Assembly (NCBI GenBank): GCA_028712255.1
Contig: JAQTQJ010000003.1
Location: 71,173-135,172, forward strand
Reading direction: 5' to 3'
From: Candidatus Omnitrophota bacterium
Lineage (GTDB): Bacteria > Omnitrophota > Gorgyraeia > Gygaellales > Profunditerraquicolaceae
DNA length: 64,000 nt
A program made the translations under genes and the position numbers. The notes below the pieces were generated by a model. It saw nothing but the letters and a program-made list of their open reading frames with translations. It was not told where the DNA came from and did no database searches. How positions within the stretch are numbered: the stretch's first letter is position 1; each line of letters begins with the position of its first letter. This document shows, one piece after another, positions 38,041 through 38,742 of the stretch.

Positions 38041-38742
38041 GTGAAAATAAGCGCATTTGCATTGCAACAAGTTGTTTTAGGCAAACATAACGTCAAAAAT
38101 GATAAACTTGATCAGGCAGATAAGTTAGTCAAGGCCAAGAAAAAAACCTATCCTCAGGTGGAGCTAGCCGGTCAGGAGGCAGCCCAAGAAGCCGATGCGA
38201 TAATTATCCCTAAAGACGCCAAAATGGATTTGATTCTTGGGGATCTGGATTTTGTGGAGACCCGCTTGAGCAAATCTCCGGAGGAAAAAGAAAAAATAAT
38301 TCTAAGCAGAATGAAAGCTGCTTTAGAAAAAGAGAATTTTATTTCTTCGATTGGTTTAACTGAGCAGGAAAAGGAAGTTATTTCCGGATATGGCTTATTT
38401 ACGCTTAAACCGGTAGTGGTAATCACAGAAGAGGAATTGGTTGATATAAGTACTTTGTTGGCCCGTGTTTTAGCTGAGAGTGGGTTTATCAATTTTCTTA
38501 CCGTTGGAGATAAAGAAAATCGCGCCTGGTTAATTAAGCAAGGTACTACTGCCTGGATGGCCGCAGGAGCAATTCATTCTGATATACAACAGGGTTTTAT
38601 TCGCGCTGAAATCATAAGTTTTGCGGATTTTATTTCTTGTGGCGGAGAAACCGGCGCCAAACAGGCCGGCAAAATGCGTCTTGAGCAAAAAGAATATATT
38701 ATGCAGGATGGGGATTTGGTTAATTTTAGGTTTAATAAGTAA
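38041..38742 (+). CDS. YchF-like protein with intact helical and TGS domains but degenerate G-domain (pseudo-GTPase); GTG start
   Basis: The C-terminus [40 protein letters not shown]...[23 protein letters not shown] is the YchF TGS signature. The N-terminus [13 protein letters not shown] stands where the P-loop GxxxxGKS should be, the G4 NxxD motif is replaced by ITEE, and about 50 aa of switch region are missing. Confidence 0.6.

What the first reader, a model, noticed from the sequence alone, without database searches (positions are those of the whole stretch)
38041..38742. YchF homolog with intact TGS and helical domains but a degenerate P-loop and G4 motif (pseudo-GTPase)
The C-terminal 150 aa are unmistakably YchF: [40 protein letters not shown]...[23 protein letters not shown]. 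The N-terminus reads [13 protein letters not shown] where YchF has IVGLPNVGKSTLF, so the GxxxxGKS P-loop is lost. The NVSE (NxxD-type) G4 motif is ITEE. About 50 aa of the switch region are missing, giving 233 aa against about 360. The gene starts with GTG and is flanked on both sides by palindromic elements, but there is no G-domain remnant upstream. So it looks like a degenerate paralog, not an insertion-disrupted gene.
Basis: partly seen in the sequence, partly recalled or inferred. Interest (0 to 1): 0.65.

Follow-up and report, generated by a model that had tools for sequence, protein, structure and literature searches.

The report
YchF ortholog without its ATPase core
This gene is a short, strongly conserved version of the near-universal ribosome-associated ATPase YchF that has lost every nucleotide-binding segment, sits where the normal ychF gene sits in related Omnitrophota bacteria, and so suggests that part of YchF's job needs no ATP.

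Summary
The ORF at 38041-38742 (+, GTG start, 233 aa) is real and is a YchF homolog (Pfam YchF-GTPase_C, E 4e-34; profile-profile E 1e-72; AlphaFold pLDDT 95.8; best structural match YchF 1JAL).

The P-loop is deleted, not degenerate. About 130 residues are missing in five blocks (E. coli YchF 11-36, 74-91, 103-124, 148-150 plus 158-163, and 209-261). These blocks carry G1, G2, the G3 glycine with switch II, catalytic His114, most of G4, and G5. Four or five G-domain strands, a trimmed helical hairpin and an intact TGS domain remain.

It is not a one-off. Hundreds of database clusters of 225-235 aa, down to 29% identity and almost without indels, share this architecture. They come from Omnitrophota MAGs and from MAGs labelled Lentisphaerota or Verrucomicrobiota. 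dN/dS is about 0.02-0.18, with dS saturated.

Other Omnitrophota carry a canonical 368-aa YchF in the same gene neighbourhood, so the short form is a positional ortholog and not an added paralog. A 95%-complete relative (UBA6253) shows no duplicated marker in a CheckM set that includes PF06071.

The flanking palindromes are mobile repeats unrelated to the truncation.

Verdict: real, functional, undescribed variant. The proposed mechanism is inferred.

The parts
38041..38742 (+). Short YchF ('DUF933 domain-containing protein'), 233 aa, GTG start. Orthologs start with ATG at the same codon.
38041..38211 (+). aa 1-57: N-terminal remnant of the G domain. It has strand beta1 (MKIxxxG), a short hairpin loop in place of the P-loop, alpha1 and switch I, then strand, helix (DxRLDxL) and two more strands. 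There is no G1, no G2, no G3 glycine and no switch II.
   Evidence: hhalign; alignments A4; DSSP of the AlphaFold model, E2-5, E14-17, H21-30, E34-43, E53-57; no GxxxxGK[ST] in any family member.
38212..38412 (+). aa 58-124: YchF helical (coiled-coil) domain with a tip about 9 aa shorter than in E. coli.
   Evidence: phmmer against 1JAL, aa 63-129 = 131-206; H58-77 and H82-96; deleted E. coli 148-150 and 158-163.
38413..38484 (+). aa 125-148: the strand that precedes G4 in YchF (LKPVVVI), followed by two short helices leading into the TGS domain. The G4-G5 half of the G domain (E. coli 209-261) is absent. This is the least conserved part.
38485..38739 (+). aa 149-233: YchF-type TGS domain, intact and about 60% identical to E. 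coli YchF.
   Evidence: PF06071, E 4e-34.
37916..38002 (.). Upstream palindromic repeat element, one of four copies in the window. Not part of the gene's history.
   Evidence: absent from ortholog locus L002.
38746..38830 (.). Downstream palindromic repeat element of the same family.
   Evidence: in L002 the gap to purH is only 8 bp.
34680..37855 (+). Conserved upstream neighbours: two ATP-grasp (D-Ala-D-Ala-ligase-like) genes and a KamA-like radical-SAM lysine-2,3-aminomutase gene. Used here as the synteny anchor.
   Evidence: Pfam; 52-62% identical orthologs flank canonical YchF in L083 and L087.
38839..44432 (+). Conserved downstream neighbours purH, folC-like, mnmE and folE. Used here as the synteny anchor.
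   Evidence: Pfam; conserved next to short YchF down to 31-36% identical members L031 and L072; purH and folC also lie downstream of canonical YchF in L083 and L087.

Best explanation
The gene encodes a functional, lineage-wide, reduced ortholog of YchF/OLA1.

What was lost: internal deletions removed the P-loop, alpha1 and switch I; the G3 glycine and switch II; the loop carrying catalytic His114; and the G4-G5 half of the G domain.

What was kept: a small beta-sheet core, the helical hairpin and the TGS domain, in the YchF arrangement. This much is shown.

In this lineage (Omnitrophota, Velamenicoccia/Koll11-type) the gene replaces canonical ychF at the ancestral locus. That is shown by synteny. 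That it is the sole copy is inferred from single-copy marker statistics in a relative.

Inferred mechanism: it acts without binding or hydrolysing ATP or GTP, as a constitutive ribosome- or RNA-associated factor that works through the helical-TGS module. Control would be by abundance or partners, not by a nucleotide cycle.

Confidence is about 0.9 for the identity and ortholog part, and about 0.4 for the nucleotide-independent ribosome-binding mechanism.
For: Homology and fold:
- PF06071, E 4e-34.
- hhalign against canonical YchF: probability 100, E 1e-72, over aa 14-233.
- AlphaFold2: pLDDT 95.8, pTM 0.85.
- Foldseek top 15 hits are all YchF or OLA1, query-normalised TM-score up to 0.81.

Loss of motifs:
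- No MMR_HSR1 hit.
- TIGR00092 scores 124 bits against a cutoff of 279.
- No Walker A in any member.
- Deleted blocks are mapped.

Functional constraint:
- More than 120 clusters at 76-100% identity.
- About 25 clusters at the 50% level with full-length matches, down to 31% identity.
- A second, 229-aa subfamily.
- 27 members align with almost no indels.
- dN/dS is 0.02-0.18 in the N-remnant, helical and TGS parts and at most about 0.33 in the short linker, although dS is saturated.

Orthology:
- Same flanking genes as canonical YchF in L083 and L087.

Single copy:
- UBA6253 carries the short form (L004).
- It is 95.45% complete with 0 contamination, judged with a marker set that contains PF06071.

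Mechanism lead:
- E. coli YchF binds the 50S subunit mainly through its helical domain (PMC11814078).
Against: - No experiment bears on nucleotide binding or ribosome binding.
- The hairpin tip that contacts H62 in E. coli is shortened and lacks three of its four lysines. The E. coli binding mode may therefore not be preserved.
- E. coli cross-linking data place the main ribosome contact in the N-terminal region near the ATP site (PMC8138138). That region is deleted here.
- A canonical ychF elsewhere in this particular genome was not excluded. Only 64 kb of the genome was available.
- A distance tree does not place the short forms next to the Omnitrophota canonical YchFs: 0 of 100 bootstraps, and these are the most distant group. 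In-situ descent is therefore supported by position but not by sequence.
- K15 is at least 90% conserved. It could in principle be a relic of the Walker lysine.
Confidence: 0.6

Rival explanations
1. It is an additional paralog that coexists with a canonical YchF encoded elsewhere in the genome. It would act as a regulator or competitor of that protein, for example by occupying the same binding site without turning over.
For: - Canonical YchF genes do exist in the phylum.
- The short family also occurs in large genomes labelled Verrucomicrobiae, including a 5.16-Mb chromosome, where nothing is known about a second copy.
- The tree does not link the short forms to the Omnitrophota canonical YchFs.
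Against: - The short form occupies the canonical gene's syntenic slot.
- UBA6253 shows no duplicated PF06071 marker.
- No contig length is shared between the canonical hit list and the short-form hit lists. This is only weak evidence.
Confidence: 0.15
2. The reduced protein still binds a nucleotide or a related ligand (ATP, GTP or ppGpp) through a non-canonical site built from the remnant sheet and the conserved K15, D20 and K34.
For: - K15, D20, R22 and K34 are conserved in at least 80% of members.
- YchF proteins are known to be promiscuous, including ppGpp binding by AtYchF1 (PDB 7y9i; PMC9748339).
Against: - G1, G2, the G3 glycine, most of G4 and G5 are all physically absent.
- Residues 14-17 are modelled as a beta-strand.
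- D20, R22 and L23 correspond to the structural VPDxRL motif that canonical YchFs also conserve.
Confidence: 0.1
3. The NTPase function is supplied in trans. The short protein would be one half of a split system and would dock onto another GTPase, for example MnmE, which is encoded three genes downstream.
For: The cluster shortYchF-purH-folC-mnmE-folE is conserved across deep divergence within Omnitrophota.
Against: - The deletions are interspersed, and the remnant strands stay in the protein. This is not how split genes look.
- No G-domain fragment lies adjacent.
- The synteny with mnmE is absent in the loci labelled Verrucomicrobiota or Lentisphaerota.
- purH and folC also follow canonical YchF.
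Confidence: 0.08
4. It is a decaying pseudogene, a truncated gene call or a misassembly.
For: It is much shorter than YchF, has a GTG start, and is flanked by repeats.
Against: - Hundreds of independent assemblies encode the same length and the same start.
- dN is far below dS.
- The AlphaFold model is very confident.
- Orthologs have ATG starts and tight operon spacing with no repeats.
Confidence: 0.02

Closest known systems
YchF/OLA1 (E. coli YchF, H. influenzae HI0393 = PDB 1JAL, human OLA1; TIGR00092)
   Same: - Three-part layout: a central sheet, an inserted coiled-coil hairpin and a C-terminal YchF-type TGS domain.
- The TGS domain is about 60% identical to E. coli YchF.
- Query-normalised TM-score is about 0.8.
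- It sits at the same genomic slot as canonical YchF in related Omnitrophota.
   Different: - It lacks G1, G2, the G3 glycine with switch II, His114, most of G4, and G5.
- It is about 135 aa shorter.
- The hairpin tip is trimmed.
- It scores below the TIGR00092 cutoff.
Full-length YchF-like proteins with degenerate motifs (P0202, P0228, P0230, P0234, P0236, P0239, L069)
   Same: YchF homologs that have lost the Walker lysine or serine/threonine and the G3 DxxG motif. They are therefore also unlikely to be NTPases.
   Different: They keep the full 335-364 aa G-domain scaffold. The window protein has gone further and deleted the segments.
PseudoGTPases (a class of pseudoenzymes; recalled from memory, described mostly from eukaryotes, e.g. 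CENP-M and the p190RhoGAP pG domains)
   Same: A G-domain-derived protein that is conserved although it has lost the nucleotide-binding motifs.
   Different: - Here the G fold itself is reduced to a remnant.
- The parent is a near-universal bacterial translation-associated ATPase.
- No paper in the searchable library links YchF with pseudoGTPases.
DRG/Rbg1 and other Obg-family proteins with TGS domains
   Same: A TGS domain attached to an Obg-type scaffold. These give weak structural matches (E about 1e-4).
   Different: The similarity is much lower (query-normalised TM-score about 0.4), and they retain active G domains.

Membership tests
YchF/OLA1 (Obg-family TRAFAC NTPase; TIGR00092) | C-terminal YchF-type TGS domain (PF06071) | tested here: met
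   E 4e-34, 117 bits against a cutoff of 27, aa 150-232.
YchF/OLA1 (Obg-family TRAFAC NTPase; TIGR00092) | Coiled-coil helical domain inserted in the G domain | tested here: met
   aa 58-124 align to E. coli 126-200. The model has helices 58-77 and 82-96. The tip is shortened by about 9 aa.
YchF/OLA1 (Obg-family TRAFAC NTPase; TIGR00092) | Walker A / G1 motif GxxxxGK[ST] followed by helix alpha1 | tested here: not met
   E. coli 11-36 has no counterpart. The regex is absent from all short members. There is no PF01926 hit at E <= 1.
YchF/OLA1 (Obg-family TRAFAC NTPase; TIGR00092) | G2 Thr, G3 DxxG with switch II, G4 NxxE, G5, and catalytic His114 | tested here: not met
   T36, G75, H114 and E210 fall in deleted blocks. 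D72 aligns to Gly44 and N207 to Glu130, and neither position is conserved.
YchF/OLA1 (Obg-family TRAFAC NTPase; TIGR00092) | Score above the curated equivalog cutoff | tested here: not met
   124.3 bits against a cutoff of 279.2.
YchF/OLA1 (Obg-family TRAFAC NTPase; TIGR00092) | Orthology by genomic position | tested here: met
   Canonical YchF in L083 and L087 lies between the same KamA-like gene (61% identical) and purH-folC (47-49% and 35-36% identical).
YchF/OLA1 (Obg-family TRAFAC NTPase; TIGR00092) | ATP/GTP binding and hydrolysis; ribosome association | not testable with these tools
   Needs biochemistry.
PseudoGTPase (G-domain derivative without nucleotide function) | Descent from a G domain with loss of the nucleotide-binding motifs, under purifying selection | tested here: met
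PseudoGTPase (G-domain derivative without nucleotide function) | Retains a recognisable G-domain fold | tested here: inconclusive
   Only about five strands and two or three helices remain. The model coordinates could not be inspected.
NCBI 'DUF933 domain-containing protein' (naming class for proteins with PF06071 only) | PF06071 present, TIGR00092 not reached | tested here: met
   The exact protein P0001 and its relatives carry this name in NCBI.

The most novel reading that the evidence does not exclude
Whole classes of Omnitrophota, and possibly lineages of Lentisphaerota and Verrucomicrobiota, have replaced the near-universal ATPase YchF with a nucleotide-free 'mini-YchF' as their only family member. 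If so, the conserved core function of YchF/OLA1 would reside in the helical-TGS module and would not need NTP hydrolysis. Together with the full-length degenerate forms, this would trace a stepwise natural route from NTPase to pseudo-NTPase in a translation factor.
Probability: 0.35. Interest if true: 0.7.

Novelty: new variant of a known kind. Interest (0 to 1): 0.55.

Why it matters
YchF/OLA1 is among the most widely kept bacterial genes. K06942 is present in 99.4% of non-CPR genomes and 97% of CPR genomes (supplement of PMC12641178). Its cellular role is still debated.

A large, ancient clade that keeps the protein but has removed every nucleotide-binding element is a natural separation-of-function experiment. 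It predicts that some YchF activity is ATP-independent, and it offers a minimal construct of 233 aa with a confidently modelled fold for testing ribosome or RNA binding.

There is also a practical consequence. YchF is marked as a bac120 marker in that supplement. From memory, the marker model is TIGR00092, which the short form fails. If so, these lineages would systematically lack that marker, while PF06071-based CheckM markers still count the gene.

No paper in the searchable library describes this form. Databases only label it 'DUF933 domain-containing protein'.

Tried and rejected
1. Direct look-up of the window protein's own contig found nothing on record. The rest of the genome could not be searched for a canonical ychF.
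2. The RBF survey supplement (PMC12641178) gives only global ychF frequencies, not per-phylum presence.
3. In the Omnitrophota compendium (PMC10066038), the rows of the CheckM raw file are truncated and the annotation sheets are cut. Per-genome copy counts could not be read directly. Only the contamination-0 argument for UBA6253 was usable.
4. The complete-genome Omnitrophota preprint does not mention YchF.
5. I tried to show that V. archaeovorus LiM carries the short form by using contig length as a fingerprint. It was not among the top 120 hits.
6. The contig-length comparison of canonical and short hit lists gave no coincidence, but its power is low.
7. P0133, the best 'long' hit, turned out to be a chimeric or duplicated sequence and was not informative.
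8. The neighbour-joining tree and the per-domain identities did not resolve the parent lineage.
9. The AFDB Foldseek library was unavailable.
10. The promoter and terminator scan found nothing above the shuffle expectation.
11. Charge and pI analysis showed nothing distinctive compared with canonical YchF.
12. The reading that the palindromes truncated the gene was rejected. They are absent in L002, and the protein is the same length there.

Full report
**1. The observation**

The window contains a 233-codon ORF at 38041..38742 on the + strand, starting with GTG.
- Pfam finds one domain, YchF-GTPase_C/DUF933 (PF06071), at aa 150-232 with E 4e-34. No GTPase-domain family appears, even at E <= 1.
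- The NCBIfam YchF equivalog TIGR00092 scores 124 bits against a cutoff of 279.
- Against PDB sequences, the best hits are YchF proteins. The TGS region aligns to 1JAL 280-362, and aa 63-129 align more weakly to the helical domain, 131-206.
- So the ORF and its YchF affinity are real and far beyond chance.

**2. Anatomy**

I aligned 27 family members spanning 29-100% identity. They align with almost no indels (alignment A2). I then compared that profile with a profile of 24 canonical YchFs headed by E. coli YchF.
- hhalign gives probability 100 and E 9.8e-73, with short-form residues 14-233 matching E. coli 42-363.
The following xxVxDxRLDxL matches YchF's VPDxRLDxL with the same spacing.
- A joint alignment with Omnitrophota canonical YchFs places the first strand (MKISAFAL) on strand beta1 (CGIVGL) and then opens a 26-residue gap.
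- Mapped to E. coli numbering, the deleted blocks are:
  - 11-36: P-loop, alpha1, switch I including Thr36.
  - 74-91: G3 Gly75 and switch II.
  - 103-124: includes catalytic His114.
  - 148-150 and 158-163: the hairpin tip.
  - 209-261: G4 Glu210 through G5.
- That is about 130 residues in all.
- None of the short sequences contains GxxxxGK[ST].
- Because a deletion boundary next to a glycine is ambiguous, I cannot exclude that K15 descends from the Walker lysine. It is not in a P-loop now, because AlphaFold models residues 14-17 as a beta-strand.

**3. Structure**

- AlphaFold2 on alignment A2 gives mean pLDDT 95.8 and pTM 0.85, with no low-confidence segment.
- The 15 best Foldseek matches in the PDB are all YchF or OLA1 structures. 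They include 1JAL (E 1e-21, query-normalised TM-score 0.81), rice, Arabidopsis and Thermus YchF, E. coli YchF on the 50S subunit (8KIE), and human OLA1. DRG/Rbg1 follows far behind.
- The protein therefore keeps the YchF domain arrangement with a much reduced central domain.

**4. Is it functional?**

- The exact protein is in NCBI as 'DUF933 domain-containing protein [Candidatus Omnitrophica bacterium]' on a 137-kb contig. The 120 best database clusters are all 221-257 aa long, nearly all exactly 233 aa, at 76-100% identity.
- An exhaustive search of cluster representatives at the 50% level finds about 25 further full-length short clusters down to 31% identity.
- A second subfamily of 229 aa, about 33% identical, is equally abundant in Omnitrophota.
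- Pairwise dN/dS between the window gene and five orthologs is about 0.02-0.18 in the N-terminal remnant, the helical part and the TGS domain, and at most about 0.33 in the short linker. dS is saturated, so these values are only rough.
- All orthologs start at the same codon, with ATG.
- This excludes a pseudogene, a truncated gene call and a misassembly.

**5. Ortholog or paralog?**

- In the 88%-identical relative L002 (GCA_028716245.1) the gene sits between the same KamA-like radical-SAM gene and purH. The spacers are 78 bp and 8 bp, and there are no palindromes.
- The order shortYchF-purH-folC-mnmE-folE is kept even next to members only 31-36% identical (L031 and L072).
- A canonical 368-aa YchF (GLPNVGKS type) also exists in Omnitrophota. 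L080 and 120 close relatives are named 'redox-regulated ATPase YchF [Candidatus Omnitrophica bacterium]'.
- In two of five canonical loci examined (L083 = GCA_023248155.1 and L087 = GCA_016196355.1), the canonical gene lies in the same slot: ATP-grasp, ATP-grasp, KamA-like | YchF | (pabB, pabC) purH, folC. The flanking genes are 35-62% identical to those of the window. The other three canonical loci have different contexts.
- The short gene is thus the positional ortholog of ychF.

**6. Is there a second, canonical copy?**

- There is none in the 64-kb window.
- Indirect evidence comes from UBA6253 (GCA_002441245.1; Velamenicoccia/Gygaellales, GTDB Koll11;GIF10).
  - It carries a 77%-identical short form (L004).
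  - It is listed as 95.45% complete with 0 contamination.
  - That figure rests on a CheckM marker set that contains PF06071. A second PF06071 gene would have counted as contamination.
- In the same data set, canonical-length PF06071 hits (domain at 284-366 and at 299-382) occur in JZ_2.bins.210 and in an Omnitrophus genome of class Omnitrophia.
- The picture is canonical YchF in some Omnitrophota and the short form in others. Direct confirmation on closed genomes is still needed.

**7. Distribution and origin**

- A scan of one genome per GTDB species found full-length short forms in MAGs labelled Omnitrophota. It also found them in MAGs labelled Verrucomicrobiae, Opitutaceae or Verrucomicrobiales, including a 5.16-Mb chromosome, and in MAGs labelled Lentisphaerota or Victivallales. 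A few carried other labels, some of them probably mis-binned.
- The Verrucomicrobia-labelled loci have 55-68% GC against 40% in the window, so they belong to different organisms. Their neighbourhoods also differ, for example uvrA upstream.
- In a neighbour-joining tree of 229 shared columns, the short forms are monophyletic in 86 of 100 bootstraps. They never group with the Omnitrophota canonical YchFs (0 of 100).
- Per-domain identities are about equal to all canonical groups.
- I therefore regard the parent lineage as unresolved. In that tree, the non-Omnitrophota short forms nest inside Omnitrophota diversity, which would fit horizontal spread. This rests on a simple distance tree only.

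**8. How it probably works (inference)**

- With G1, G2, the G3 glycine, most of G4 and G5 physically absent, conventional ATP or GTP binding is very unlikely.
- What selection preserves most strongly is the TGS domain (dN about 0.04-0.10 against 0.07-0.22 in the N-terminal and helical parts), followed by the hairpin and the VxDxRL-containing remnant.
- In E. coli, YchF docks on the 50S subunit (uL14, bL19, H62) mainly through the helical domain, and deleting that domain weakens its phenotype (PMC11814078).
- The most economical model is a nucleotide-independent ribosome- or RNA-binding factor that uses the helical-TGS module.
- Caveats:
  - The hairpin tip is trimmed. It lacks counterparts of K149 and K159, and has Glu in place of K152.
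  - Other E. coli data place the main ribosome contact at the N-terminus near the ATP site (PMC8138138). That region is deleted here.
- I put about 0.4 on this mechanism.

**9. The palindromes**

- The two flanking elements belong to a family of four copies in the window, each about 85-90 nt. They share the form GTGTCATTGC..CGAAGCAATC-loop-GATTGCTTCG..CTCGCAATGACAC. None is expected in shuffled sequence.
- They are absent at the orthologous locus.
- One copy lies in frame inside the folC-like gene.
- An IS200-like Y1 transposase gene lies 7 kb downstream.
- They are mobile repeats that landed in intergenic spacers. They are unrelated to the reduction of YchF, which predates them by a very long time.

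**10. Comparison with what is known, and verdict**

- The protein works from the YchF scaffold and is orthologous to YchF by position. It fails the defining NTPase features and the curated family cutoff.
- It is best described as a reduced, pseudo-NTPase variant of YchF.
- Full-length YchF-like proteins with mutated Walker A and G3 motifs also turned up.
- I found no paper describing any of these forms.
- Novelty: new variant of a known kind. Interest: moderate to fairly high for translation-GTPase specialists (0.55).

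Noticed in passing
window ~14840-14925, 37916-38002, 38746-38830, ~40830-40915: A family of palindromic elements, each about 85-90 nt, with outer arms GTGTCATTGC/GCAATGACAC and inner arms CGAAGCAATC/GATTGCTTCG. There are four copies in 64 kb and none in 100 shuffles. They are absent around ychF in the orthologous locus L002.
   Followed up: partly
window 40524-41957 (folC-like ORF), element at ~40830-40915: One copy of the palindromic element lies in frame inside the folC-like (Mur-ligase family) coding sequence. 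It replaces or extends about 20-28 residues relative to the 449-aa ortholog in L002. This behaviour recalls Rickettsia palindromic elements.
   Followed up: partly
window 45675-46163 (-): An IS200-like Y1 transposase (PF01797, E 3e-14). It is a possible REP-associated tyrosine transposase that could mobilise the palindromic elements. No link was tested.
   Followed up: no
proteins P0202, P0228, P0230, P0234, P0236, P0239; locus L069:5275-6294: Full-length (335-364 aa) YchF-like proteins with a degenerate Walker A (GRST, GRRT, GTRT, GKKT, GRDA) and a lost G3 DxxG motif. They may be intermediates between canonical YchF and the short form. Their taxonomy is unknown except for L069, which is labelled Thermodesulfobacteriota.
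   Followed up: partly
window 34680-37855; L083:6370-9570: A conserved trio of two ATP-grasp (D-Ala-D-Ala-ligase-like) genes and a KamA-like lysine-2,3-aminomutase gene lies upstream of ychF in both short-form and canonical Omnitrophota loci. This may be a beta-lysine-related pathway of unknown role.
   Followed up: no
L031 (JAIWAR010000030.1, labelled Methanosarcinales archaeon): This contig carries the Omnitrophota-type cluster shortYchF-purH-folC-mnmE-folE. Its protein's close relatives are all named Omnitrophota. It is probably an Omnitrophota contig mis-binned into an archaeal MAG. That is of some interest because V. archaeovorus is described as host-associated in PMC10066038; from memory, its host is a methanogenic archaeon.
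   Followed up: partly
L019 (OY970130.1, 5.16-Mb chromosome), L015-L026, L029, L047, L068: Short YchF forms occur in high-GC genomes labelled Verrucomicrobiota and in Lentisphaerota/Victivallales MAGs. In a simple neighbour-joining tree they nest within Omnitrophota diversity. This may reflect horizontal spread within the PVC superphylum.
   Followed up: partly
literature: PMC10066038 methods: The same phylum is reported to lack the CheckM markers TIGR03594 (from memory, the Der/EngA model), PF13603 and PF02978 systematically. PMC12641178 notes that Omnitrophota have fewer ribosome-biogenesis factors than CPR bacteria. The reduction of YchF may be part of a wider trimming of ribosome-associated GTPases.
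   Followed up: no
protein P0133: A 369-aa database 'YchF' with two TGS-like segments and no N-terminal G domain, on a 1.3-kb contig. It is probably a chimeric assembly.
   Followed up: partly
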